DNA of 64,000 nt. It comes from Eledone cirrhosa (taxonomy: Eukaryota). The notes under the pieces are model-generated. The model ran no database searches. It saw only the letters and a list, made by a program, of their open reading frames with translations, and had not been told where the DNA came from. Below, piece after piece: positions 28,710 to 60,151 of the stretch; the stretch's first letter is position 1; every line of letters starts with the position of its first letter. Location: contig OZ024741.1 of the NCBI GenBank assembly GCA_964016885.1, positions 46,996,001 through 47,060,000 on the forward strand, given 5' to 3'. A program made the translations under genes and the position numbers.

Positions 28710-31700
28710 ATGCCTCCCAAACGACGAGCGATTGGTCAATCTACACCTCAAGCAAGGAAAAAAATGCATTACGAGCTTCAGAAACAGACGAGCAACGGAA
28801 AGCAAGATTGGAAACGAATCGACTACGCAATGCTGAAGCCCATTCATCTGAAACAGACAAGCAACTGGAAGCAAGATTGGAAACCGTTCGAGTAAGAACT
28901 GCTCGAGCCCGTTCATCTGAAACAGACAAGCAACGGGAAGCAAGATTGGAAACCGTTCGAGTAAGAACTGCTCAAGCCCGTTCATCTGAAACAGACGAGC
29001 AACGGGAAGCAAGATGGCAAACCGTTCGAGTAAGAACTGCTCAAGCCTGTTCATCTGAAACAGACGAGCAACGGGAAGCAAGAGTGGAAACGAATCGACT
29101 ACGCAATGCTCTCACCAGAAGAATACTGCACGCTGATTTAAATCTTGGTGCATTTCATTACGATTCAAATTGTGATTACAGTCTTCATCCAAGTGTGATT
29201 ATTGGAAAAATGGATAAATTATGCGGGTATTGTGATGCCCTCAAATTTAAAAATGAAACACCAGGAATGTGCTGCTCGGGTGGAAAAGTGAAATTGCCAG
29301 AATTACATCCACCACCTGAACCATTATCAACGTTAGTATCAGGTGACACAAGCGAATCTAAACATTTCTTGGCAAACATACGCAAGTACAATTCATGTTT
29401 CCAAATGACATCGTTTGGTGCAACAAATATCGTGCGCGAGAATTACATGCCAACATTCAAAGTGCAAGGGCAAATTTATCATCGTGCTGAATCACTACTA
29501 CCACTGCCGGACGCAGATCACAAATTTCTTCAAATTTATTTCATGGGAAACACTGATGACCAAATAGATCAACGTTGCAAATTCAATAGGGGAACTAAAC
29601 GAGAAATTGTTACTGCATTACACACTTTATTCAATCAACACAACAAATTAATTCGATTGTTCAGAGCTGCCCTTGAACAAATGCCAAGTGATGACTACAC
29701 AATTGTAGTTAGAGCAGACAAAACACCTGTTGGCCAACATCAAAGACAGTACAATGCACCAACAATTGATGAAGTGGCGATCGTTATTGTAGGTGAAGAA
29801 TTTAACTCTCGCGATATAATTCTTCACCGCAGAAATGGTGATGTTCAGCGAGTCTCAGAAACGCATCGGTCATACAATGGTTTGCAATATCCAATTTTAT
29901 TTTGGCAAGGAGAAGATGGATATCATTTCAACATCAAACTGAGAAATCCTAAACAGATGAGGAAACGAATAAGAAAGTCAGTGTCATGAATTATTATTCA
30001 TATAGATTAATGATTCGTGAAAACGGTGAAAATCATATTTTGAAATGTCGACAATTGTTCCATCAATACATTGTCGATATGTATGCAAAAATCGAAACTG
30101 AACGACTCCTCTACATTCGATTGAATCAAACCAAGCTACGTTCAGAAGAGTACATTCATTTACGTGATGCCATTGTTAATGATGGCAATATGAATCCTAA
30201 TGAATTGGGGAAAATGGTCATACTGCCGGCTACATTTACAGGGAGCCCACGGCACATGCATGAATACGCACAAGATGCAATGACATATGTTCGCGCATAT
30301 GGCCGTCCAGATTTTTTTATTACATTCACATGCAATCCTACGTGGGATGAAATTAAAGAACTTTTGTTACCTGGTCAATTGTCTTCGGATCGTCATGATA
30401 TTACAGCGCGTGTGTTCAAACAAAAATTGAAATCTTCAACGGATTTAATTGTCAAGCATCATGTTTTTGGAGAGACACGCTGTTGGATGTTTTCCATTGA
30501 ATGGCAAAAAAGAGGATTGCCACATGCCCACATTTTGATTTGGTTAATTGAAAAAGTCACACCAGATCAAATTGATCAAATCATCTCAGCAGAAATACCA
30601 GATGTCGACGTTGATCCAGACTTATTTGAAGTCGTCACTAAAACATGATTCATGGTCCATGTGGCTTACTCAACAACAATTCACCATGCATGTCTGATGG
30701 GAAATGCACGAAACAATACTCAAGAGACTTAGTTGCCGAGACTATCACTGGCAATGACGGATATCCACTCTATCGTCGACGAGCAACTGAAGATGGCGGC
30801 AAATCCATCACTTTAAAAGTACAAAACAATTATGTTGAAGTCGATAATCGTTGGGTTGTACCATATTCACCGTTACTCTCAAAGACGTTCAAAGCACACA
30901 TCAATGTCGAGTATTGCAATTCGGTGAAAGCGATCAAGTACATTTGCAAATATATCAACAAAGGAAGCGATGTGGCAGTTTTTGGAGTGTGCAATGCAAA
31001 TGCATCTATCGATGAAATCGACCAATACCAACTGGGACGCTACATTAGTAGTAATGAAGCAGTATGGCGCATTTTATCATTTCCAATCCATTATCGACAT
31101 CCAACAGTTGTTCATTTGGCAGTGCACCTTGAAAATGGACAGCGCGTATACTTCACAACTGAAAATATACGTGCAAGGGCCATTGACACCACCGCCAACA
31201 ACGTTAACTGCGTTTTTCTCATTGTGCAGTGAAGATGTGTTTGCAAAGACACTACTTTATTATGAAGTGCTAACATATTACACATGGAATACATCAACGA
31301 AAAAGTTTAAACGTCGCAAACGGGGTAAAGTAGTTGAAGGACATCCCAATTTATATTCGACCGACGCGTTAGGCCGTTTGTACACTGTTCACCCAAATAA
31401 TGCAGAATGCTTTTACTTGCGATTATTGTTAATCAACGTACGTGGACCGACATCATTCCAAGAATTGAGAACAGTAAACGGTCAAGTATGTGCCACTTAT
31501 CGTGAAGCTTGCCAAAAATTAAATCTTCTTGAAAATGATGGACATTGAGACACTTCACTCGCTGATGCATCGAATACTGCTCGACCACAGCAAATACGCA
31601 CGTTATTCGCAATAACATTGACAACGTGCTTCCCATCAAATCCAAAAGATCTTTGGGAAAAATACAAAGACTACATGAGTGAAGACATCCTACATCGTTT

Positions 31701-44597: not shown

Positions 44598-46130
44598 AAT
44601 ATGGTTTTATAAATATAGTTTCCATTTGTTAATATATTGTATATTTACTCCACTAGCTGTTGAGTGCTTTATATCAGTTATAAAAATGTTTAAGCTTGTT
44701 GAATCCCAACAAATTAAATATAACCTCTGCATATATTTTGCTCCTCTATTGTTGAGCGCTTTAAATTATAACTAATTAAAAATGGAATTCTTTAAGATCT
44801 CTTCTCTAAAAGACATACCTTTACCTAGGAATAAGGACTTTCTAAAACAACTCAGAAAAATCGGATGGCATGCTTTTCATTTCGATAAATCTGATGCGAA
44901 AGAAAATATTTCCAATCTTGATAGAATCTTCAAATCCAAAAAGAATCCACCTTCCAACAAACTATTAATGGAATTTGAAAATGAGATTATCTCTATCATA
45001 CAAAGCATTAAATTTAAGAAAAGCTACTTTGAAGGCCAGGATTACCTAAAGAGTCTCAAAAATAATATAGAAAGCTTTGAAAAAACGGAAAAAATTCTAG
45101 TTAAATCAGATAAAACCAACAATCTTTATGGAATGGAAAAGGATAATTACAATGATCTTATAGGAATTAAGGAAGAATTACAAAAGAGCAACCAGTGATG
45201 ACCTTGAAAAACTAAATACGGAAGCTTCGTATATAATGCAGGAATTAGGCATCGAAAATAGGACTCAACTCTTCATACCTAGGAAACCAAAAATTAATAT
45301 GAAGGACCATAAAAGACATTTTGAAATTGAATTACCAGTTAGATTGATTGCACCATCTAAATCGGACCTTGGCATACTTAGCAAGAATATTTTAGAAAGA
45401 ATCATACCACAGCTTAAGGAAATATCTTATTTAAAATTATGGAATGGGACTAATGAAGTTATTGACTGGTTTAAGGACATTAAATATAAGCATAACAATA
45501 AATTTATTCAATTGGATATTAATAATTATTACTCATCTATCACTCCTAATCTACTTAATAAAGCCCTTACATATGCATTTAAATATACAGATTTAACTAG
45601 TAATGAAATGCACATTATCTTAACTGCACGTAAAACATTAATTAAATTTAACAACCACCTCTGGACTAGAGCAGATAGAGATAATAATTTTGATATTACT
45701 ATGGGATCATCTGACTTGGCACAAATAACGGATCTTGTGGGGCTTTTTATTAACAATATTTTACATAGGAAAATACCGGAGATGACCGGTGGTTTATATC
45801 GTGACGATATGCTTTTACTTATAGAAAATAATAATAATTGTGAAATAAATAGGAAAAGAAAAGAAATTATACAATTTTTTAATTGCCTTAACCCTTTAGC
45901 ATTCAAACCGACAAAAACCAACAAGATTATGTCCCCTTTCATTTATTCAAACCAACAAAAACCGACATTTAATACCACATGGAGATCTCCTTCTAAAAGT
46001 AAAAATTGACATCATCAAAATCTCGTCAATTCGAGATTACTGCGAGATAAAGCCCTTACGCGCGAAAATTAACTCTTAGTATAGTTAAAGAACTTGCGAT
46101 AACACGCGTTTTTAACGTTCAAAGTGTAAC

Positions 46131-47830
46131 ATGGCTTCCGAAAGTAGCAACAACGAATTTGAAGGTTTTACATCCGACAGCATTCGAGATCAAAAAGAAA
46201 CAGAAGATAATATTAGTGATTTATCTTCAAACGAATCAGATATATTTATTTCTGATATATCTGATGATGATGATGATAGTTACTTTCAAAGTGAAAGAGA
46301 AGATATAACTGACACCATTGAAAAAACAGCAATGTGGTTGAAAGAAACAACACCAATACATGTTTCGGATTTTACTGAAAATATTGGACCACCACACATT
46401 ACCACCCGATGCTAAAGCACTGAATTATTATTTTTATTTTTACCACAAACTTTCTTCGAAGTGGTGGCAGAAGAGACAAATCGCTATGCCCAACAACGAA
46501 TTTCTAACCGAGGAAAACCCGATCTGTTATGGCGTCCGACAAATTCTGCTGAAATGAAAGCGTTTTTTACCATAAATATTATGTTTGGTATTAAAGAATT
46601 TCCAAGACTGTGGAATTATTGGAGTACTGATATAAGGTTTGGTGACCCTTATATATCTAGTATGATGGCAAAAACGAGATTCATCAAATTAAACCAGTAT
46701 TTGCACCTGGTTGATACTTCAAATACCCCTGGTAGAAATGAATCAAATTACGACCCACTGTACAAAGTACGACCATTAATTGAAATGTTGTCGGAAAAAT
46801 TTAAAAGTGTGTATATACCTGGAAAAAATCTTAGTATTGATGAAGCTATGATTGGGTATAAGGGTAGGGTTCATTTCAGACAGTATATGCCAGCTAAACC
46901 CACCAAATGGGGCATCAAAGTGTGGGAACTGTGTGTGAATCGGACACAGGATACTGTGTAAACTTTGATGTTTACACAGAAAAAAAACATAACGGAGAGA
47001 GAAAACACAGGTTGGGTTACGATGTTGTGTGGTCGCTGACCCAACCCTTCCACTCTCAACACAAACATAGAAAAAAAAACGGTCAAAATATATATTTTGA
47101 CCGTTTTTTTTCTTCAGTGCTTTTAGCAGAGGATCTTGCGCTTGTAAATTCGTACACCTGCGGCACAATAATGAGCAATCGGAAAGGGCTACCCCAAGAA
47201 ATAAAAGATGCGAAACTGAAAAACAGAGGGGACATTCTCCAAATGCAAAAAGGGAACATGTTAGCCACAGTGTTCAAAGACAAACGGCAAATTTTGTTCC
47301 TGAGTTCTAACCAACAACCAGGTGTTGGGGCTGAGGGTAAACCTTTAGTTAACCTCTCCTACAATAAATATATGGGTGGGGTTGACAAATCTGACCAGTA
47401 TTGTGCACATTACCCAGTTGGACGCCCTGGAAAGAAATGGTGGAGGTACATCTTATGGTTTTTAGTGAATTTAACCATTGTGAATTCTTTTATTGTATTT
47501 ACTAAAAGCCACAAGGATCCGCCACCACCAAAGGACTACTGTCATATGAAGTTTCGCGTGGACATTGCATCCCAGCTACGTGGAGGATATACTTCTCGCA
47601 AACACAAATCTGGGAAAAAATCAAAATTAGCAGTGGTCCACAAAGAAAATATTGATTTTCACAAAGTGGAGAGAATTGATGGTAGGAGGAAGGTTTGCCG
47701 ATTGTGCTCTTTGCAAAAGAGAAAAACTGTTAAGGGTTACGCAATCCAAACCCTATTTATGTGTTCCTTTTGCAAAGTGCCATTATGTAAAGGGTCTTTT
47801 GGGCAGTATCACGATAGAAATATTGTCTGA
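46131..47830 (+). pseudogene. piggyBac transposase, frameshifted
   Basis: SIDEAMI, YMPAKPTKWGIK, YFDRFFSS, YNKYMGGVDKSDQ, C-terminal Cys-rich domain. Confidence 0.9.
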
Positions 47831-48469
47831 CAATATTGAAAACAATCTTGAAAACAATATTTAAAAAATATATTAGAACATATATACAAAAACACCTGCA
47901 TTCACCTGTCACACCTGTTAATGAACTTATATATTGGGAACATTCTGTTACGTAAATTTACACCGTACATTGTGTAAGAGTACATTGCCAATATTATTTT
48001 GACTGGTGAAAAGGTTTTATACATTTTTTTCAATGAGAATATTTGCCTGGAATGTAGAGAAAGACTAAAACCTTGTACTGATTACACCTGCATTTATAAT
48101 TAATTCACCTGTTCGGAAAACTGCTAGAATTGATGGAAATCAGCATCTAAGTCATTATTGGATTTTTTTTTGCAACAAATCTAACAGGTAAGGCAGATAA
48201 AGTTTAAATTTTTGTGTTTATCCATAAAGTTATTACTTTTACACCTGTTAATTAATTTCACCTGCCCATAAAAGTCAAATTTAACAAAAAAAAAAACAGG
48301 TAAAAATATATAATTGTAAATTATAATTATTTAAACATCTACTGACAAAATTTCAAGTCTGCACATAGAAAATTAAAGTAATTACAAACAAATAAAATTG
48401 ATAACCCTCTTGAGTATAATTAAGTGAAAATAATGCGAATAGATGAACATGACATTTGACAATTCAATC

Positions 48470-48713
48470 ATCATCATCAGCGTTTAACGTCCATATTCCA
48501 CGCTTGCATGGGTTTGGATGGGAGTTTTCCCACTTGAGGCAAGAGTGGTTGTCTTGCTCGCATAGGACTGTCTGGCGGGTTTTCTATGGCTGGATGCCCT
48601 TCCTAACACCAACCACATTTACAGTGTGGAACTGGGAGGTTTTTACCGTGTTACCTACACGGCCACATTACAGCGTGGACTGTGTTTTTTTGTCGTGACA
48701 CCTACACGACCTC
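48470..48713 (-). mobile_element. RTE 3'-end fragment inserted just inside the piggyBac right end
   Basis: Reverse complement of the RTE 3' UTR at ~59892-60150; absent from the second piggyBac copy. Confidence 0.85.
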
Positions 48714-49930
48714 GTGAATGCTAAAGGGTTAATCTTAAAGTAGAAGTAGAGAATAATTATAAAATAGTTAATTTTTTAGATGTAACTTTAAACCTTAACA
48801 CTGGTCTTTATTATCCATTTCATAAAATAAATGAAAATCTAAACTATGTTAACTTTAATTCCAATCACCCCAGATCCGTTAAAAACACTATTGTAAATTC
48901 TGTGCAGCAACGTATTTCTAGAATTTCAGCTAATAAAAATATATTTGAAGATAAGGCACAATATTATAATGAAGCGTTAGGTAGAGCAGGCTATAGTAAT
49001 AAAATTAAATACATTGATAATAAGGATATGCCAACTAACCATAACTATAAATATTATAATAGAAAACCTTACACTAACTCGAAAACCAAAAGAAAAAATA
49101 AAACTAGAAATATATTATGGTTCGCTCCCCCTTTCTCATTAAGTATTAAAACTCCTATTGCTAAATTATTCTTTAAAGCTCTAGATAAATGCTTTCCTAG
49201 AACACAGATATTACTCAATATTTAATAGACATACTATTAAACTCTCATATTCCACAACTATGAATCTAGCGCAGAATATTTATAGAATTAATAATAGAAA
49301 CTTAAAACGTAACCAGAATAGCATTAATACCCCTAGCAATATCCAATATAATGTTACGGCTCCCAGTAATCTAAATTTAGATAAATGTAATTGTAGAAAT
49401 AAATCTGTCCTCTAAATAATAATTGTTTAGTTAAAAATATAGTATACAATTGTAATGTTGAAACAAATGTAAACTCCTTTAATTATGTAGGCTCTACCTC
49501 CACAGACTTCAAATCCCATTTTAATAACCACAAATGTTCTTTTACGAATATAGGTAAAAAATCTTCAACTTCTCTATCTAACTTACCATGGGACCTGAAA
49601 TCAAAGAGCATTAACTATTCTTTACTTTGGAATATTATCTCCAAAGCTCCTTCATACACTACTTTATCCAAAAATTGTTCTCTTTGTGTCGAAGAAATAT
49701 TCTTTATACTAAAAAGTAAGAACTCTATTAATTTGAGGAACAATTTATTTAGTTCTTGCAAATATCGTTTAAATTCAACTTTTAAATATATATATATAAA
49801 ATGTAATATACGACTTATCTCTTTTACATAATGTCTTCTATATCCATATATGATTCATATACTTAATTTATTATTAGACCTATCGATAGATTATAAAATT
49901 CCTTTATATGATTGCTTGAAACTCCTTTAA

Positions 49931-51402
49931 CCCTTTAGCATTCACATTGAATTGTCAAATGTCATGTTCATCTATTCGCATTATTTTCACTTAATTATAC
50001 TCAAGAGGGTTATCAATTTTATTTGTTTGTAATTACTTTAATTTTCTATGTGCAGACTTGAAATTTTGTCAGTAGATGTTTAAATAACTATAATTTACAA
50101 TTATATATTTTTACCTGATTTTTTTTGTTAAATTTGACTTTTATGGGCAGGTGAAATTAATTAACAGGTGTAAAAGTAATAACTTTATGGATAAACACAA
50201 AAATTTAAACTTTATCTGCCTTATCTGTTAGATTTGTTGCAAAAAAATCCAATAATGACCTAGATGCTGATTTCCATCAATTCTAGCAGTTTTCTGAACA
50301 GGTGAATTAATTAAAAATGCAGGTGTAATCAGTACACGGTTTTAGTCTTTCTCTACATTCCAGGCAAATATTTTCATTGAAAAAAATATATAAAACCTTT
50401 TCACCGGTCAAAATAATATTGGCAATGTACTCTGTAAATGTACGGTGTAACATTACGTAATAGAAAGTTCCCAATATATAAGTTTATACACACTTTAAAA
50501 TTTTTCTGACAATATTTCAATTAATGGTCGTACTTTGTACAGTGGGTCGTAATTTGATTCATTTCTACCAGGGGCATTTGAAGTATCAACCAGATGCAAA
50601 TACTGGTTTAATTTAATGAATCTCGTTTTTGCCATAATACTAGATATATAAGGGTCACCAAACCTTATATCAGTACTCCAATAATTCCACAGTCGTGGAA
50701 ATTGTTTAATACCAAACATAATATTTATGGTAAAAAACGCTTTCATTTCGGCAGAATCTGTCGGACAACATAACAGATCGGGTTTTCCGATATTAGAAAT
50801 TTGTTGTTGTGCATAGCGATTTGGCACAACTTCGAAGAAAGATTATGGTAAAAATAAAAAATAATAATCCAGTGCTTTAGCATCGGGTGGTAATGTGTGT
50901 TGTGGTCCAATATTTTCAGTAAAATCCGAAACATGTATCGATGTTGTTTCTTTCAACCACATTGCTGTTTTTTCAATGGTGTCAGTTATATCTTCTCTTT
51001 CACTTTCAAAGTAACTATCATCATCATCATCAGATATATCAGAAATAAATATATCTGATTCGTTTGAAGATAAATCACTAATATTATCTTCTGTTTCTTT
51101 TTGATCTCGAATGCCGTCGGATGTAAAACCTTCAAATTCGTTGTTGCTACTTTCGGAAGCCATGTTACACTTTGAACGTTAAAAACGCGTGTTATCGCAA
51201 GTTCTTTAACTATACTAAGAGTTAATTTTCGCGCGTAAGGGCTTTATCTCGCAGTAATCTCGAATTGACGAGATTTCGATGATGTCAATGTTTATTTTTA
51301 GAAGGAAATCTCCGTGTGGTATTAAACGTCGGTTTTTGTCGGTTTGAATAAATGAAAGGGGACATAATCTTGTCGGTTTTTGTCGCTTTGAATGCTAAAG
51401 GG
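49931..51402 (-). mobile_element. Internally deleted piggyBac, same family
   Basis: TTAA TSDs (49927-49930, 51403-51406), same TIRs; transposase stops after LSEKF. Confidence 0.93.
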
Positions 51403-52111
51403 TTAAGGAAATTTTTTTCTTGAAAACTTACTGAAGGGTCTAAGAAAATCTTTTGAAAATTCCTTTGAAAAATATAGAAAAACTATACTTTTATATTATA
51501 TTTTCAAACGTTTTTAATATATATATATATCCAAATATTTAAATATGTGGAAAACATGATTTTTTATATATATATATGTGGTGTAACCTATGGTTTATGC
51601 TTTAAATATATTCTTAAGAAGATTTTTTAAATGTTTTAACTTTATAGCAAGTAAATTTTGTGACTTAGTATAAAATAACATAAGGTTCATGTTCTAATTA
51701 TATTCTTAAGATTGAAAATTTAACTTCTTAACTTTATAGCATTTAATCCCTAGAGTTCTTAAAAAATCACTTATAACTTCCTTTACACTTCCTTACTGTT
51801 TTTATAATATAACTAAGTGGTTATTCTTTTGTAAACTCTCGAAAATTTTCCATAAATTTAGAATTATTTGGATGTTTTAAATTTTTGACTTACAACTTTA
51901 AATAAAATAAACTATAATAGATTTGCTCTAATGTAAAATAATATATATTTTTTAATAACTTATAATCCTTAACATACACATTTAAACTAATTATTAATTT
52001 ATCAAATTAAATCTTTAATCTAATTTTTCAACCTATCATTATAAATATTATAATCAAAACATAACGAATCCTGCATTATAAATATTATTCCTCCACGCTA
52101 TTCTATTCTTA

Positions 52112-53161
52112 TCTTCATCAAAATCTCGTCAATTCAAGACTACTGCGAGATTAAGCCCTTACCACGAAAATTAACACTTAATATAGTGAAACAAGTTAAA
52201 ACAACATGTGTTTTTTTAACTTTGAAAGTAGAACAGATTTTTTTTTTGTATCAACATGGTTTCTGAAAGTAGCGATACCGACTTTGAAGGTTTACACACG
52301 ACATTCAGAATGAACAAGAAACAAAAGATAATATTAGTGATATATCATCAAATAAATCTGATGTTTATATTTCTGAAATTTCGTCCGACGAAGATTGTTA
52401 TTTTGAAAGTGAAAGCGAAGCAGATCTCCAGGGCGCCATTGAAGATATTTCAGCAACATGGTCGAAAAATACCATACCAATACATGTTCCTGATTTTGTT
52501 GAAAATACTGGTCTACAGCATATATTACCTCCCGATGCTAAGCACTGGATTATTTCTTTTTGTTTTTGCCACAAACTTTCTTCGAAGTTGTGGCAAAAGA
52601 GACGAATCAATATGCCCAACAGCAGATATATATCAAAGAAAACCTGATCAGTTATGGCGACCGACAGATGCTGCGGGGATGCAAGCGTTTTTTACCATAA
52701 ACATTATGTTTGGTATAAAACAATTTCCAAGACTGTGGAATTACTGGAGCACTGATATAATGTTTAGCGACCCTTATATATTGAGTATTATGCCCAAAAC
52801 AAGGTATTTGAAATTAAACCAATATTTGCATCTGGTTGATACTTCAAATGCCCCTGCTAGAAATGATTTCAATTATGACCCTCTGTATAAAATTCGACCA
52901 GTAATTTAAATGCTCTCGGAAAAATTTAAAACAGTGTATATACCTGGAAAAAATCTTAGTGTTGATGAAGCTATGATTGGGTATAAGGGTAGGATTCATT
53001 TTAGACAATACATGCCAGCTAAACCCACTAAATGGGGCATCAAGGTGTGGGAACTGTGTGAATCGGACACAGGCTACTGTGTAAACTTTGATGTTTACAC
53101 AGGAAAGAAACACAACGGAGAGAGAAAATATGGCTTGGGGTACAATGTTGTGTGGTCTCTG
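52112..53161 (+). mobile_element. Diverged piggyBac fragment without termini
   Basis: Homologous to ~46010-47040; interrupted at ~53162. Confidence 0.85.
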
Positions 53162-53900
53162 AGTAAAAATAAAAATAAAAAAATATATAAAAAATATTGA
53201 GAAAGGGAAAATCACATATATTCTCTATATATTTTTTATATACTTTTTTTATATATTTTTTTTTATATATTTTTACTTTTATTTTCATTTTTATCCTCCT
53301 TATATTTTATTTTATTCTTACTTTTATATCTTATTATAGTGTAATCTTCCCTATGCCTTATTATACATTATTAACGATAAATTATTCTTATTCCATTTCT
53401 AATTACCTCATGTACTTTCTCCTCCGTTATATATATATTATATGCCCTTTGTGTGTGTGTAGCCTCTGCACACCCTCTGCACCCTACTATCAATGCCACC
53501 CCATCTATGGCTCCACTAACCACTCGACTCCCGGGAATGAATATGACCCACACCCCACCCTCCCGCACCTAAATTAGAATTATTGTCTCCTGCTTTTGCT
53601 CTTTACTCTTTGTTCTTGAATGTTTGGTTGGTAGAGTCCATAACACCAATCAAAACCCTTTTATAGCTCTGAAGAATCCTACAGTTACGTAAGGAAGAAA
53701 CATTGTAAGCCAATAAAAAATGTTTGATGTTGTAGACGCTCTTGTGTTCTTTATCATATATACGGCTCTGCTCCAAAGCATTGAGTTAATTATTATACTG
53801 CCAATACTTTAATGGGACATGGGTATACAATGCCTAACCTAAGTATATATATATATATACTATATACATATATATATATACTATATACATATATATAGAG

Positions 53901-53949
<49 letters not shown>

Positions 53950-53957
53950 TATATACA
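53162..53957 (+). repeat. HHR-bearing PLE pseudo-LTR-like repeat, copy 1, with a 5' inverted segment (53162-53216)
   Basis: 53217-53957 matches 57792-58537 including the patterned (TA)n end; 53162-53216 is an inverted version of sequence starting at 57754. Confidence 0.85.
53659..53718 (+). ncRNA. Type I hammerhead ribozyme
   Basis: UUUUAUAGCU-CUGAAGA-AUCCUAC AGUUAC GUAAGGAA-GAAA-CAUUG-UA/AGCCAAUAAAA. Confidence 0.8.
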
Positions 53958-54057
53958 GGGGAACATCCACTCATGTAATAACACACTATATATTATATAT
54001 TATGTATTTCGCTATGTGTCGCCGAAAGGTTATTTGGAGGGAACTCTCAGAGAGAGA

Positions 54058-54161
54058 ATTTTTTTCTGTAGAAGTCTTCTCTATATGTGGTGTTTAGCAT
54101 GAATTCCTCCTGTAATACTCTTCTTTGAGAGGAGCACGATATGTGAAGTAACATATATGTA
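54058..54161. repeat. ~104-bp direct repeat, second copy at 56354-56456
   Basis: Identical apart from one substitution and T-run length. Confidence 0.95.
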
Positions 54162-54452
54162 AAGAGGGGGTTCATTAGTCTCCTCATGTTGGGATTCATA
54201 GCCTATTTCCATTTTTGTAGGTATCAAGCTGGAGTCAGGTAATTCGCCACTATACTCGTAGCTTGGTGTATTTTGAGGGTCATCTCCTCTTCCCATTCTG
54301 GATGTTTCTAGAAGTTCAGACACACGATTGCCCTCTGGAAGGGTAGTTGCACCAATGGCTCCACAGATTTCCTTAACGGAGCCTAAGGCTACTTTGTTTC
54401 CCTTGGCATAGTTGTATGATTTCCTGCACTGTCTCTGTCTATCTTGCGGCAT
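54162..54452 (-). pseudogene. Truncated second viral gene (P-like, 97 codons)
   Basis: ATG ~40 nt after the gene-start signal that follows N; S/E/P/D-rich; cut off by the 104-bp repeat; identity inferred from position only. Confidence 0.6.
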
Positions 54453-54481
54453 TTTGGGCAGTGGTTTTGTTAGTTAAGTAT

Positions 54482-54508
54482 GAAATCGAGTTAGTTTTTT
54501 TTTCTGAT
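54482..54508 (-). promoter_or_regulatory. Rhabdovirus-type gene junction (gene end / intergenic CT / gene start)
   Basis: mRNA sense ATCAGAAAAAAAAA-CT-AACTCGATTTC, compared with vesiculovirus TATGAAAAAAA-CT-AACAGNNATC; 72 nt after the N stop. Confidence 0.78.
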
Positions 54509-54580
54509 GCTGTACAATGTTATAAAAGTATGAAAAGTGATTGTATAAAAATAAAAAGTTAAGACCGTCTATAAAGTCCT

Positions 54581-55630
54581 TCAATGATACCCCCCAGATT
54601 TCTGTGCTTCTGTAACAGAATCATTAAAAGCCTGCCCCAATGTTCCGGGTCTAACTTTGCTAATCGCGCTTTTATTGAATGTTGAGATAAAACTTGTCGG
54701 ATTTGGAAACCTGTTCACCATCTCTACCATACTTTCCGAAATTCCAAAGCCTATCTGATTGAGATCTATATCTGGATCCTCATCAACTTGTCCTTCCTCA
54801 GCATAAAAGAAGACTTTGTGCGGTTTGGATCTATGAGCCACTCTGAATGCGAGCGCGTCAACCAGACCAGATTCAACATGTCCTGGCTCTATATTTCGGG
54901 AATGAACAAATCTTTTATCCTTGCTGAGGCAACCTATCATTCCGAAGAATGTGTGTAGATAGGGATTGGAGCCTGCTGAGAAAACACATTTTTTTATCAA
55001 GCCGAGAGATTTTTGATAAGGGAAGATTTCAGTATTAGCTGCCCCTGTATTCAGGGCTTTCAATACTCTCAACATTTCTGTAGCACCAGCCTCATTGATT
55101 ACGATACAGATCATATCTTCAAGCCTCAATTGGAGTGTTTTTCTGAAATGGTCGAGGACTTCTACTATGTGCATGCCCTCAAATCTGGTAAGAATTGTCC
55201 CTCTTCTCAAAAGGGATAGTTCATGATCCTCATGTTGAAATAGGAAATAATCCACGGAAGCCATAATCTGAAAGATTTGGTCATTTTTGACTATATGAGC
55301 TAGTGGTCCATTTATTAACATGTCGTGCATATACCGATATGGGTGCGTCATTCTATAATTGTTGAAATCCTTGACTAGATGTTGTTTGTAGTCACCCACT
55401 TCCAGGCTGGTGCCTGCATTTTCAACTTTGTACATGGTGACAATGTAAAGAAGAAGACCATGGTGATTACTGGGTGTTGAATCGGCCGCAGTTGGGGTCA
55501 GGAAGCTAGAGTCTTCATTAATTACAAAAAAATCGGCAGGACCCACTGACTGTCTTGTCTTCAAGAAATCGTATTGGAGCAAATCCTTATTAATATCAAA
55601 CATTAAGTACTTCTGGCAATATCGGACCAT
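54581..55630 (-). CDS. Endogenous rhabdovirus-like nucleoprotein (N), N-terminally incomplete
   Basis: By-eye match to VSV N as recalled: IMASVDYFLFQHEDHELSLLRRGTILTRF vs IVAAVDMFFHMFKKHECASFRYGTIVSRF; FPYQKSLGLIKKCVFSAGSNPYLH vs MPYLIDFGLSSKSPYSSVKNPAFH; VRPGTLG vs LREKTIG. Confidence 0.87.
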   Translation of the reverse strand: MVRYCQKYLMFDINKDLLQYDFLKTRQSVGPADFFVINEDSSFLTPTAADSTPSNHHGLLLYIVTMYKVENAGTSLEVGDYKQHLVKDFNNYRMTHPYRYMHDMLINGPLAHIVKNDQIFQIMASVDYFLFQHEDHELSLLRRGTILTRFEGMHIVEVLDHFRKTLQLRLEDMICIVINEAGATEMLRVLKALNTGAANTEIFPYQKSLGLIKKCVFSAGSNPYLHTFFGMIGCLSKDKRFVHSRNIEPGHVESGLVDALAFRVAHRSKPHKVFFYAEEGQVDEDPDIDLNQIGFGISESMVEMVNRFPNPTSFISTFNKSAISKVRPGTLGQAFNDSVTEAQKSGGYH

Positions 55631-55909
55631 AAAATGTAGGATATGCTTTGGAAGAATCTCCTGTGTATTGGATTTTGCAGCACCGTCTATATTTAGACTA
55701 TGTTAGCTGCACCCTTCTTTTTTTTTTTGCCTCTGTGTTTCTGCTTTTTCTTTGCCTTGTTTTTTATGCATGCATGTTTTTTTTTTTTAACATTTTTCAA
55801 ATCCTTATTCTGGATTCAACGTTTGGTAGAGCGAATAGCTCCCCCTTGTTGCATTGTTCACCATCTTACTCCACATGTGAGTAATGACATCGATTTTCGA
55901 TGATTTGAA

Positions 55910-57400
55910 AATCTGGCAGGCAGTACTGTAGTAAGACGCCTCACGCCAGGATAATAGAACAACCCTAGTTATCTCCCGCTGGTTGAAAACACGAGAAGTA
56001 AACAGACAGCCACGAGAAAGCAGACTGATCACACGCCAGAAAACAGCCTCTGTACCACGCCACAGAAAGGGAACAGCAAACAATAAACCCCACAATACTT
56101 TTGTAATGGTAATACGTTCCTTTCACCACAACTGACCATGTCAACATTTGGTACGTTCCATTTGTAGTATAAATAAATCACCATTATTTACAATTGTTGA
56201 CTTTAACTCTCGTTGTGGTTATTGTCTTGTTTGCGCACACACTCACTCACTTTGTTATAATTCTCACAAACACAAAATGGTAAATAGACGAGGGACCTTC
56301 CCTCACGTCTATGTCAATAAACTATCCAACTAGGATACATTACATTTTACCACATTTTTTCTGTAGAAGTCTTCTCTATATGTGGTGTTTAGCATGAATT
56401 CCTCCTGTAATACTCTTCTTTGAGAGGAGCACGATATGTAAAGTAACATATATGTATTGTCGCAGTGGAAACTGAGAACCACCTCCTCTCCTGCTGACCC
56501 AAATGTATACTGAAGACCAGAACACCACTTTCCACAATATAAGAGAAGAATGCGGTTGCCGGAATATTGATGACCAAAACATCACAATCCAAGGTCATGG
56601 CAAAACACAGTGACTGGTAAACACGACCTAAACATCACAACATGGACATCGGAACAACAGAGATCTAGGAATATCAGATATAATATCAATAAGAGCATCA
56701 ATTGAATTTTTATCGCGTTGAAATACATTTAAATATGTGTCTGTGTGTATCAGACACACGTACACACGAAGAAACTGGTGACCTAAATGTACTTGTCATG
56801 CCTGACCGAATTCCCAGGAGAATTTTCGGTCAGTTGCTATCTTGACTGCTTGCCCTCACAGTTACTACGTAGCAGTTCTTGCACGTGACTGCTAGACCCG
56901 GATGAAACGAAGACGAAGAATTTCCTTGCGTACCGTTATTTACCACAGATGCGATTTCACTCTGCCTCATTAATGTTCAATCAACACCAAAGTTCTATGT
57001 TCTGGGCAATAGATTTGAATCCAATCACCGATAACATAGTTGGATGACCGATAATCAAACCGAACCGGAGTACTGTGATCCTTGTGATTTTGAGAAATAC
57101 AACCATTGATAGTGTATCGAAGACCAGAAAACCATACTCCATAATATAGAACCAAGTGACTGATTTATGCGACCATAATAACACTACACACATATTGGGT
57201 CAGCAACGAACTAGGAATATTGGATGCTCCGTCAATGACCGGGTAAGCACAAATAGAATTCTATTTGCATTGAAATATACGAACTTGCGAATCTGTTGTG
57301 AGGTCGAACGCAAACACACACGACCGCACAGATAAGCGATGGACTATGCTCTATGGGTTGGACTTGCAAGTGCATTGAAAGATGTGTAACTCGAGTATAC
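55910..57400 (+). mobile_element. Two ancient, decayed RTE-like RT remnants (~55910-56940 and ~56940-57400)
   Basis: Segments are homologous (GAAGACCAGAA.ACCA at ~56512 and ~57119; CTAGGAATAT in both); relic motifs LFAHT (FADD position), FYVLG, MPDRIPRRIFGQL, MLYGL. Confidence 0.45.
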
Positions 57401-57488
57401 ATATTATTTATTATTAAGATGTATAAACTTGACACACTTATTATCATCTTATATTCTCTCAACTAATCACATTATGATTATATTTCTC

Positions 57489-57673
57489 GGGTGGTGGATT
57501 GGCAGTATCGGTAGAGGGTCGGACGTCATGCTTTCCAGCATAGTTACGTCCCTTTACGATCTGAGTTCAAATCCCGCCGAGGTTGACTTTGCCTTTCATC
57601 CTTACGGGGTCGATAAAATAAAGTACCAATAATGCACTGTGTAATTGCTGGCCTTGTGCCTAAAGTAGAAACA
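57489..57673 (+). mobile_element. tRNA-derived SINE with 18-bp TSD
   Basis: TSD ATTATGATTATATTTCTC at 57471-57488 and 57674-57691; A box TGGCAGTATCGG, B box GTTCAAATCC. Confidence 0.9.
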
Positions 57674-57753
57674 ATTATGATTATATTTCTCTCTCCCGTT
57701 TTCTCCTCCCATATTTATAATATTTTTATTTAACAAAATCTGTTTTTTTACAT

Positions 57754-58492
57754 TGTGTTTTTCCCTTTCTGATACTTGCTTATATTTTTTATATATTCTC
57801 TATATATTTTTTATATATTTTTTTATTTTTACTTTTATTCTCATTTTTATCCTCCCTATATTTTATTTTATTCTTACTTTTATATCTTATTATAGTGTAA
57901 TCTTCCCTATGCCTTATTATACATTATTAACGATAAATTATTATTATTATTATTCCATTTCTAATTACCTCATGTACTTTCTCCTCCGTTATATATATAT
58001 TATATGCCCTTTGTGTGTGGTGTGTAGCCTCTGCACACCCTCTGCACCCTACTATCAATGCCACCCCATCTATGGCTCCACTAACCACTCGACTCCCGGG
58101 AATGAATATGACCACAGCTAGTAAACAAGGACCCACACCCCACTCTTCCACACCTAAATTAGAATTATTGTCTCCTGCTTTTGCTCTTTACTCTCTTTAC
58201 TCTTTGTTCTTGAATGTTTGGTTGGTAGAGTCCATAACACCAATCAAAACCCTTTTATAGCTCTGAAGAATCCTACGGTTACGTAAGGAAGAAACATTGT
58301 AAGCCAATAAAAAATGTTTGATGTTGTAGACGCTCTTGTGTTCTTTATCATATATACGGCTCTGCTCCAAAGCATTGAGCTTATTATTATACTGCCAATA
58401 CTTTAATGGGACATGGGTATACAATGCCTAACCTAAGTATATATATATATATACTATATACATATATATATACTATATACATATATATAGAG

Positions 58493-58531
<39 letters not shown>

Positions 58532-58537
58532 TATATA
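57754..58537 (+). repeat. HHR-bearing PLE pseudo-LTR-like repeat, copy 2
   Basis: Direct repeat of 53217-53957 with a few indels, e.g. a 20-bp segment missing from copy 1. Confidence 0.85.
58253..58312 (+). ncRNA. Type I hammerhead ribozyme
   Basis: As 53659-53718 with one loop II change (GGUUAC). Confidence 0.8.
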
Positions 58538-58577
58538 CATATATATATATATACAGTATATACATATATATATACAG

Positions 58578-58642
<65 letters not shown>

Positions 58643-58659
58643 ATATATATATATATACA

Positions 58660-60151
58660 ACGAATATAGTGAAGAGTTTAGCGTAAAAGTTGGCGTCCAT
58701 CAGGGCTCTGTTCTCAGCCCCCTACTATTTATTATTGCCCTTCAGGCTATAACAGAGGAGTTCAAGACCGGCTGCCCATGGGAACTCCTATACGCAGACG
58801 ACCTGACACTCATAGCGGAATCAATGGTTGAGCTAGAGAAGAAATTCCAAACATGGAAGCACGGCCTAGAATCAAAAGGCCTTAAAATTAACCTGGCTAA
58901 GACTAAAGTTCTAGTTTGTAGGAAAGAAAATAAGGCGGCGGTCCCTTCTGGGAAATGGTCGTGCTCGGTGTGTAGGAAAGGCGTAGGTAGAAACTCCATT
59001 TTATGTCCTAAATGCAAAGTATGGGTGCATAAAAGATGTAGTGGGATCACAGGTAAGCTAACTAAGAACATAGATTTTACATGTGGCCGGTGCTCTGGTG
59101 CAATAAGTAGCAGCAAGTGCCCACAAAATACTAGCTCTTTCAATTGCGCAGAGGGTTCTATAGAAATAGTGGACAGTTTCCGTTACCTGGGTGATAAAAT
59201 CAGCAGTGGGGGGAGGGTGCTCTGAAAGTACAGTAGCTAGAGTCAGAACTGGTTGGAAAAAGTTCAGAGAGCTTATACCACTATTAGCTGCTAAAGGGTT
59301 CTCCATAAAAATGAAAGGCAGGTTGTACGATGCCTGCATACGAACAGCAATGTTGCATGGCAGTGAGACCTGGGCATTGTGTGCAGAGGATATACGCAGT
59401 CTAGAGAGGAACGAAGCTTGCATGCTCCGCTGGATGTGTAACAGTAATATACGTGAACGGCAAAGCATAAACGAACTAAGGAAAAAATTAGAAATAAGAG
59501 GGATCAGATGTTGTTTACTCGAGAGAAGGCTACGTTGGTATGGACACGTGATGCGCATGAAAGTCGATAGCTGTATAACAAAGTGCAGGGCAATAAAGAT
59601 AGACGGTAGCCACGGAATAGGCAGACCTAGAAAAACCTGGGAGGAGCTGATAAACTCCGACCTCACACACTTACACCTCTCCAAGACAATGTCACTGGAC
59701 CGAGACCTTTGGCGGTACTCAGTAACAGAGAAGACCTGCCTTACCTAAATACATAGTAAAAACTACTACAGCCAGTAGGCATCTCTAACAAAATACCCCC
59801 CCCCCCCCGTCCCACCACCCCCATCCCATCCACGCCACCCCGTTCTATGTAAAGTTGTGTTGGTGCCACACCATCCAGGCCGAAACAAATGAGATCGTGT
59901 AGGTGTCACGACAAAAAAACACACAGTCCACGCTGTAATGTGGCCGTGTAGGCAACACGGTAAAAACCTCCCAGACCCACACTGTAAATGTGGTTGGTGT
60001 TAGGAAGGGCATCCAACTGTAGAAAACCTGCCAGACAGTCCTATGCGAGCAAGACAATCACTCTTGCCTCAAGTGGGACTACCCCCGTCCAAACCCAAGC
60101 AAGCGTGGAACACGGACGTTAAACGTTGATGATGATGATGATGATGATGAT
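58660..60151 (+). mobile_element. RTE-clade LINE, 5'-truncated
   Basis: GVHQGSVLSPLLF, LLYADD, KINLAKTK, Cys/His insert, FRYLGD, HGSETW, RLRWYGHV; (GAT)n tail; 3' end partly repeated at 60309-60507. Confidence 0.92.

What the first reader, a model, noticed from the sequence alone, without database searches (positions are those of the whole stretch)
54440..54580. Intact viral gene-end/CT/gene-start junction implies a genome-type RNA template
Seen: after the N stop come 72 nt of UTR, CAG-A9, CT, AACTCGATTTC, then an ATG ORF. Known: rhabdovirus mRNAs are monocistronic and end at the A-run, and the intergenic dinucleotide is skipped. Inference: the insert came from genomic, antigenomic or read-through RNA, not ordinary mRNA. 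The genomic strand is co-oriented with the flanking PLE repeats, which fits an RT template switch. The junction also gives the virus's transcription signals as a search handle.
Basis: partly seen in the sequence, partly recalled or inferred. Interest (0 to 1): 0.7.

Follow-up and report, generated by a model that had tools for sequence, protein, structure and literature searches.

The report
Two-gene rhabdovirus fossil inside Gypsy retrotransposon
This is a real stop-and-restart signal between two genes of a rhabdovirus, preserved in what is probably an octopus genome; the viral piece is joined to a Gypsy jumping gene, was likely copied from a rare two-gene viral message rather than from the viral genome, and was likely moved a second time into a Penelope element.

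Summary
The junction is real: rhabdovirus N stop, 74 nt, CAG-A9, CT, AACTCGATTT, then a second ORF with no host match. Independent N copies elsewhere in this genome end at CATTAG-A9 or begin at AACACGGATTT, confirming both signals. So the template was not an ordinary one-gene mRNA. The window copy is a later, truncated insertion into a Penelope element with a 102-bp duplication. Orientation does not show a genomic template: an L-gene copy with the same orientation inside a Gypsy element starts at AACA with a fold-back, the mark of an mRNA template. Best reading: N-ORF2(P) read-through mRNA copied by Gypsy reverse transcriptase (about 0.6; genomic RNA about 0.25). Read-through-derived viral fossils and LTR capture both have precedent; the combination, in a mollusc, I did not find in print.

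The parts
53949..54161 (+). Penelope-like element, 3' region, left part; 54060-54161 is the first copy of the 102-bp duplication
   Evidence: 93-95% to other copies, which run on without the insert in 13 of 13; RT + GIY-YIG-like ORF upstream in other copies
54159..54161 (.). 3-nt overlap (GTA on +) shared by virus and Penelope sequence at the left breakpoint
   Evidence: junction bridged by a short-read contig, 54115-55701, 1 difference
54162..54452 (-). First 97 codons of viral ORF2 (likely phosphoprotein P), cut by the Penelope breakpoint; the frame runs on into Penelope sequence to 54081
   Evidence: complete but broken ORF2 of about 410 codons in C219
54453..54492 (-). ORF2 5' UTR beginning with the gene start AACTCGATTT (54492-54483)
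   Evidence: N copy at C5:61.19M starts AACACGGATTT
54493..54494 (-). Intergenic dinucleotide CT
   Evidence: sequence; same as Chandipura N-P junction (3'-GA-5', PMC3260278)
54495..54509 (-). N gene end CATCAG-A9
   Evidence: independent N copy at C2:55.89M ends CATTAG-A9 at the aligned place
54510..54580 (-). N 3' UTR
   Evidence: aligns with the UTR of other N copies
54581..55677 (-). Rhabdovirus N, lacking about the first 210 nt of the gene; open frame without stops
   Evidence: PF00945 E 2e-21; start offset projected on L056
55672..55728 (+). Gypsy pol end, hairpin and T-run; duplicated on both sides of the virus in C219, single in empty elements; 4-6 nt overlap with N at 55672-55677
   Evidence: 24 of 24 empty copies have the flanks adjacent
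55729..55926 (+). Gypsy 3' UTR ending in a purine-rich tract
   Evidence: integrase ORF upstream on the same strand in intact copies
55927..56354 (+). Gypsy 3' LTR, TGTAG...ACCACA; its exact end forms the right breakpoint
   Evidence: end: 11 other held copies have 11 different flanks, 2 of them C-TGG (primer-binding site); start inferred from TG after the purine tract
56355..57488 (+). Penelope-like element resumes; 56355-56456 is the second copy of the 102-bp duplication (1 difference)

Best explanation
The stretch is the N/ORF2 gene junction of an alpharhabdovirus-like virus, kept because a Gypsy retrotransposon's reverse transcriptase likely copied a two-gene (N-P read-through) viral message, and the resulting chimera likely inserted at least twice. 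Steps: (1) shown: junction signals are viral; virus is joined on both sides to Gypsy sequence in C219, ending at the A-run 14 nt after the ORF2 stop; (2) inferred: the growing Gypsy plus strand, ending in the T-run after the hairpin, paired with the A-tail at the ORF2 gene end, ran back through ORF2, CT and most of N, and returned to Gypsy by 4-6 nt of overlap, re-copying the hairpin; (3) shown: the same chimera lies at two sites with different flanks ((TA)n in C219, Penelope here); (4) inferred: the window copy entered the Penelope element by its exact LTR end, the other end being broken in ORF2 and healed by 3-nt overlap with a 102-bp duplication (one-ended integration about 0.45, repair copying about 0.3, Penelope RT jump onto host chimeric nucleic acid about 0.25). 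It is likely an inert fossil or a source of antisense RNA; no protein role is indicated.
For: Two-gene insert bounded at a gene-end-like A-run (join confirmed by a contig with 0 differences). Target-like duplication of the hairpin/T-run, single in 24 of 24 empty elements. Other copies end at mRNA termini: L054 and L056 end at the N gene end; L056 and L057 begin at the N gene start; none of the 9 N loci showed a leader or a third gene. The C3 L copy, antisense inside a Gypsy element like this one, begins at AACA 127 nt before the YNLNSP motif (residue 30-46 in 7 of 7 homologues checked) and is preceded by a 15-nt inverted copy of its own sequence, which needs a plus-sense template copied to its end. 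L054 switches exactly at the LTR end plus 2 nt, where plus-strand strong-stop DNA ends. 8 of 9 N loci adjoin LTR-element sequence. Precedent for read-through-derived fossils: PMC10288550; for LTR copy-choice capture: PMC6797480, PMC5177903.
Against: No untemplated tail is shown: the A-run is 13 nt, within the 7-13 nt range of the element's own run. The ORF2 end reads AAACAGG-A13, not CATYAG-A9. The three antisense N events with mapped 5' ends start 144, 201 and 212 nt into N, not at the gene start, as entry near the 3' end of genomic RNA could also give. A reference title in PMC6797480 states that most retroviral recombination occurs in minus-strand synthesis (title only seen), which here would mean a genomic template. 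The fold-back evidence comes from another locus and gene. L057's start overlaps similar element sequence, so it is not independent. ORF2 is called P by position, composition and a weak fold match only.
Confidence: 0.6

Rival explanations
1. Gypsy reverse transcriptase switched during minus-strand synthesis onto the viral genomic (negative-sense) RNA near its 3' end, copied N, the junction and ORF2, and left at the U-tract of the second gene end by pairing with the element's own U-run.
For: Genome sense is co-oriented with the element in 5 of 7 LTR-linked events (window/C219, C4/C5, C2:55.9M, C28, C3 L); all N copies begin within about 210 nt of the gene start while their 3' ends scatter; the C219 left end joins a second LTR family about 20 nt after its AATAAA, like a first-strand transfer; A9 recurs at three N gene ends as if templated.
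Against: No leader seen in any copy; the co-oriented L copy has a fold-back at AACA that only a plus-sense template explains; copies stop at gene ends and starts, which are termini only in mRNA; genomic RNA is coated by N (established knowledge).
Confidence: 0.25
2. A LINE-type enzyme inserted a polyadenylated N-ORF2 read-through RNA into the T-run of a chromosomal Gypsy copy by target-primed reverse transcription; the 54-nt repeat is a long target duplication and Gypsy later carried the passenger.
For: Geometry of A-run plus duplication and 5' truncation is that of LINE insertions (PMC2912400, PMC10288550 passages).
Against: 54 nt is long for a LINE duplication (recalled); the other Gypsy-linked copies show no target duplication but LTR-cycle junctions. 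Same template conclusion as the best explanation.
Confidence: 0.1
3. One reading: Penelope reverse transcriptase jumped from its own RNA to viral genomic RNA and back.
For: Orientation fits; 102-bp duplication and 3-nt overlap at the left join; earlier unchecked notes describe Penelope enzymes copying other RNAs in this genome.
Against: 680 bp of Gypsy UTR and LTR lie inside the duplication; the same virus/Gypsy join exists in C219 without Penelope flanks. At most Penelope copied an already chimeric host sequence.
Confidence: 0.04

Closest known systems
miEBLN/X/P-1, bornavirus N/X/P read-through-derived element of bats (PMC10288550, passages seen)
   Same: A non-retroviral fossil spanning a gene junction, ending at the second gene end plus A-run, exposing a fast-evolving second gene
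   Different: Bornavirus, LINE-1 insertion with 8-nt duplication, full length; here rhabdovirus, 5'-truncated, inside a Gypsy element and re-inserted
LTR-retrotransposon/virus chimeras of Aedes (PMC6797480, PMC5497376) and nodavirus element in a Bel/Pao LTR element of Bursaphelenchus (PMC5177903); passages seen
   Same: Viral RNA copied by copy-choice into an LTR element and integrated; Gypsy association
   Different: The passages seen give no two-gene negative-strand insert, no strand-of-synthesis evidence and no repeat insertion of one chimera; host here is probably a cephalopod
Alpharhabdovirus gene junction (vesiculovirus 3'AUAC U7 NN UUGUC, PMC3260278; core G[U]7 and UUGU with variant UUGA, PMC4334499; passages seen)
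   Same: A-run, CT dinucleotide, AAC start; AACT equals the listed UUGA variant
   Different: CATYAG in place of TATG, and A9 in place of A7; no close living relative found (L fragment 45-52% to the 120 listed rhabdovirus L proteins)
Single-transcript viral fossils (PMC2987831, PMC2912400; passages seen)
   Same: mRNA-type templates, as in most other copies in this genome
   Different: That survey found different genes never contiguous; this insert is contiguous across two

Membership tests
Rhabdovirus-derived endogenous viral element | Homology to a rhabdovirus protein | tested here: met
   PF00945 E 2e-21 over cut-off; VSV N E 8e-11
Rhabdovirus-derived endogenous viral element | Integrated in host DNA, not contamination | tested here: met
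   Contigs bridge virus/Penelope and virus/Gypsy joins; RAD reads of 3 other samples cross the N/Gypsy join
Alpharhabdovirus gene junction | Gene end with G[U]7, dinucleotide, gene start UUGU or variant | tested here: met
   CAG-A9-CT-AACT; run is 9 rather than 7; signals recur at ends of independent copies
Rhabdovirus phosphoprotein (ORF2) | Second gene after N | tested here: met
Rhabdovirus phosphoprotein (ORF2) | Sequence or fold homology to a known P | tested here: inconclusive
   A 72-aa central domain folds as hairpin-helix-hairpin (pLDDT 82.6); carp-virus P central domain 7c5z ranks 37 of 48,161 (Z 3.7, rmsd 3.9, 59 aligned), Xiburema virus P rank 21 at E 0.45; neither stands above unrelated rows
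Gypsy LTR element (flank of N) | pol with RT-RNase H-integrase order, LTR with TG...CA ends, primer-binding site, purine tract | tested here: met
   Integrase in this family (L066) and RT-RH-INT in a related one (L049); LTR end and C-TGG; LTR start inferred
Penelope-like element (outer flank) | RT followed by GIY-YIG endonuclease | tested here: met
   RT motif YRDD and C-terminal GIY-YIG-like part in L099/L100; Pfam GIY-YIG E 0.002-0.01, below cut-off, in 3 of 3
LINE-type processed viral pseudogene | Untemplated poly(A) tail and short target duplication | tested here: inconclusive
   A13 not longer than the element's run; duplication 54 nt
Genome-templated insertion | Leader, trailer or more than one junction in the insert | tested here: not met
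   One junction only; no leader seen in 9 N loci
Antiviral piRNA source | Antisense small RNAs from the locus | not testable with these tools
   no small-RNA data reachable

The most novel reading that the evidence does not exclude
Gypsy elements of this cephalopod repeatedly captured mRNAs of an undescribed rhabdovirus lineage during plus-strand DNA synthesis, priming on viral A-tails, and the chimeras stayed mobile (two chimeras each inserted at two sites; one is amplified in a tandem array), building a heritable, mostly antisense archive of the virus like the mosquito piRNA system; the window preserves the one capture of a read-through message.
Probability: 0.35. Interest if true: 0.75.

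Novelty: new variant of a known kind. Interest (0 to 1): 0.52.

Why it matters
The junction alone is a modest find, but it documents read-through transcription and the transcription signals and second gene of a rhabdovirus lineage with no close known relative, in a host group for which my searches found no rhabdovirus fossil paper. The set of young copies shows base-level junctions that bear on an open question: which enzyme, which strand and which viral RNA make non-retroviral viral DNA in invertebrates. It also warns that orientation relative to a flanking retroelement does not reveal the template strand.

Tried and rejected
Pattern search was mistyped (missed the window itself) and was replaced. 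Glycoprotein family search found nothing, but its control rang nowhere, so it is uninformative; no M search was made. No RNA holder listed. ORF2: no Pfam family, no solved-structure hit, no homologue, atlas top score 0.84, a lead only and unrelated; 274-aa model mostly unreliable, pLDDT 39, its fold searches gave nothing clear. Rfam scan of 52000-60000 gave only microsatellite noise, no hammerhead. The representative-protein search never ran (queue full, 5 tries), so the nearest N relatives beyond one Octopus bimaculoides protein (41%) are unknown. I first read 13-24 nt before the gene start in L056/L057 as viral leader; in L057 it is element sequence and in L056 a 9-nt inverted copy of N sequence. 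I first noted L056 as antisense to its element; one search showed it is sense, and I corrected this. C219 as a mere mis-assembly or haplotype of the window was rejected: different flanks, and reads support both forms. Literature searches listed no paper on octopus or cephalopod rhabdovirus fossils; four papers asked for were not held, most subscription papers are outside the library, and no supplements were read, so prior description in tables cannot be excluded. PMC3229293 passages were not informative.

Full report
Observation. On the minus strand the window holds a 373-codon open frame (55702-54581) that matches the rhabdovirus nucleocapsid family (E 2e-21) and VSV N best among solved structures. 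After its stop come 74 nt, CAG, nine A, CT, AACTCGATTTC and, 40 nt on, an ATG. The motif arose in 0 of 20,000 resamples and a genome-wide pattern found only this place and G000:C219. It has the form of an alpharhabdovirus junction: 3'AUAC U7 NN UUGUC with GA at N-P in Chandipura virus (PMC3260278, passages); core G[U]7 and UUGU with variant UUGA (PMC4334499, passages). The host is probably an octopus: 3.0 Gb genome and the only protein hit is from Octopus bimaculoides.

The signals are confirmed by independent copies. A search with N gave 19 matches at 9 loci, which I group into 7 events. One ends at CATTAG-A9 at the aligned place, one at CACT-A9; one begins AACACGGATTT. ORF2 occurs only in the two copies of this insert and has no family or homologue. 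It is likely P: second position, acidic and Ser/Thr/Pro-rich start, and in C219 a central domain predicted as hairpin-helix-hairpin, with the carp-virus P central domain at rank 37 of 48,161, Z 3.7, which is inconclusive.

Anatomy. The insert 54162-56354 lies between two copies of a 102-bp stretch differing at one base. That stretch is single, and followed directly by the sequence at 56457, in 13 of 13 other copies; they are the 3' region of a Penelope-like element whose ORF lies on the window + strand. But 55672-56354 is another high-copy repeat: the pol end, 3' UTR and LTR of a Gypsy-type element, also on +. The LTR ends exactly at 56354. So the virus is joined to Gypsy on the N side and to Penelope only where ORF2 is cut.

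The sister copy decides the order of events. G000:C219 (L045) has the same Gypsy/N join, 1.3% substitutions in the viral part, no Penelope flanks, and continues through about 410 codons of ORF2, broken by a frame change and stops, to AAACAGG-A13, 14 nt after the stop. There the 54-nt Gypsy T-run/hairpin found at the N end recurs, followed by the Gypsy pol end and part of a second LTR; both outer ends sit in (TA)n. In 24 of 24 empty elements the two flanks are adjacent with one hairpin. Short-read contigs bridge both the window's Penelope join and the C219 ORF2/Gypsy join, and RAD reads of other samples carry both variants. The viral RNA was therefore first copied into a Gypsy element, and the window is a later truncated insertion of that chimera.

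Which RNA? A one-gene mRNA is excluded. The genome's other copies argue against that inference. Two N copies lie in the opposite orientation. The L copy at C3 lies inside a Gypsy element in the same orientation as here, begins at AACA 127 nt before a motif found at residue 30-46 of 7 homologues, and is preceded by a 15-nt inverted copy of its own downstream sequence: the product expected when the enzyme runs off the 5' end of a plus-sense message and folds back. L056 shows a 9-nt fold-back at its gene start. L054 switches at the LTR end plus 2 nt into the gene-end A-run, where plus-strand strong-stop DNA ends (established LTR cycle). No copy showed leader or a third gene. I therefore favour a polyadenylated N-ORF2 read-through message primed by the Gypsy T-run (0.6).

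Against this: the A13 is no longer than the element's own run (7-13); the ORF2 end differs from the N gene end; three antisense N events begin 144-212 nt into N, close to the genome's 3' end; and minus-strand switching, which would need genomic RNA here, is said to be the commoner route (title in the reference list of PMC6797480). Genomic RNA keeps about 0.25, LINE-type insertion of the same read-through RNA 0.1, the primary Penelope switch 0.04.

Second step. The exact LTR end at the right join, a 3-nt overlap at the left and a 102-bp duplication resemble one-ended retroviral integration (recalled, not checked); repair copying from a C219-like locus, or a Penelope enzyme jumping onto host chimeric nucleic acid, remain possible. 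Earlier unchecked notes describe active Penelope copying in this genome, which keeps the last option open; none concerned this virus.

Comparison and novelty. Early surveys found viral fossils confined to single transcripts (PMC2987831, PMC2912400, passages). A read-through-derived two-unit fossil is known for bornaviruses (PMC10288550, passages), and LTR capture of viral RNA for mosquitoes and a nematode (PMC6797480, PMC5497376, PMC5177903, passages). The combination seen here, a rhabdovirus junction within a re-inserted Gypsy chimera in a cephalopod, did not appear in ten searches, with the limits given. The L fragment is 45-52% identical to the 120 listed rhabdovirus polymerases with no close relative; that it belongs to the same virus as N is not shown. 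Verdict: real, a new variant of a known kind, interest 0.52.

Noticed in passing
G000:C3:130159709-130173870 (L048, L049, L093): About 4.9 kb of rhabdovirus L (PF00946 E 5e-146), with internal repeats, lies antisense inside a Gypsy element between two LTRs 99.2% alike over 245 nt; it starts at AACA with a 15-nt fold-back.
   Followed up: yes
G000:C4:337.14M (L053) and C5:74.85M (L055): One N/LTR chimera with identical virus joins at two sites with different outer flanks, 2.7% apart: partial LTR, antisense N, 3' UTR, purine tract, LTR. A second mobilised chimera.
   Followed up: partly
G000:C2:55.887M (L054): N copy whose gene end A9 abuts the end of a full LTR plus 2 nt; 5' end joined to the pol end of the same kind of element.
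   Followed up: yes
G000:C28:117.477-117.485M (L050, L051): Five tandem 1.8-kb units, each with the 5' part of N (77% to the window's N) and LTR-element pieces, beside a Gypsy pol.
   Followed up: partly
G000:C5:61.19M (L056) and C2:336.02M (L057): N copies in the same sense as the adjoining LTR element; both begin at the gene start; L056 also ends at the gene end, followed by a purine-rich run.
   Followed up: yes
G000:C2:46933856-46934563 (L052), about 62 kb before the window: Another N fragment (63%) with no LTR sequence seen beside it; its 3' flank resembles window 29354-29551.
   Followed up: partly
G000:C23:16.22M, C3:37.50M, C27:16.995M (L096-L098): Short, much older L-like fragments; C27 has inverted pieces; no Gypsy pol near them.
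   Followed up: partly
window 54581-55702: The N frame is open for 373 codons although 5'-truncated; its first ~9 codons are Gypsy sequence. N copies fall in groups 62-78% alike in protein, suggesting several related viruses or strains.
   Followed up: partly
window 55381 and 55545: Contigs read T at 55381 against the assembly; RAD reads of two other samples show both window and C219 letters at 55545 about 50:50, so both copies are likely shared among animals.
   Followed up: partly
window 45881-53162: Nested, partly inverted piggyBac-like (PF13843) and Penelope-like fragments; 53217-53955 repeats 57781-58547.
   Followed up: no
window 1-12300: A near-identical tandem duplication of about 6.4 kb.
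   Followed up: no
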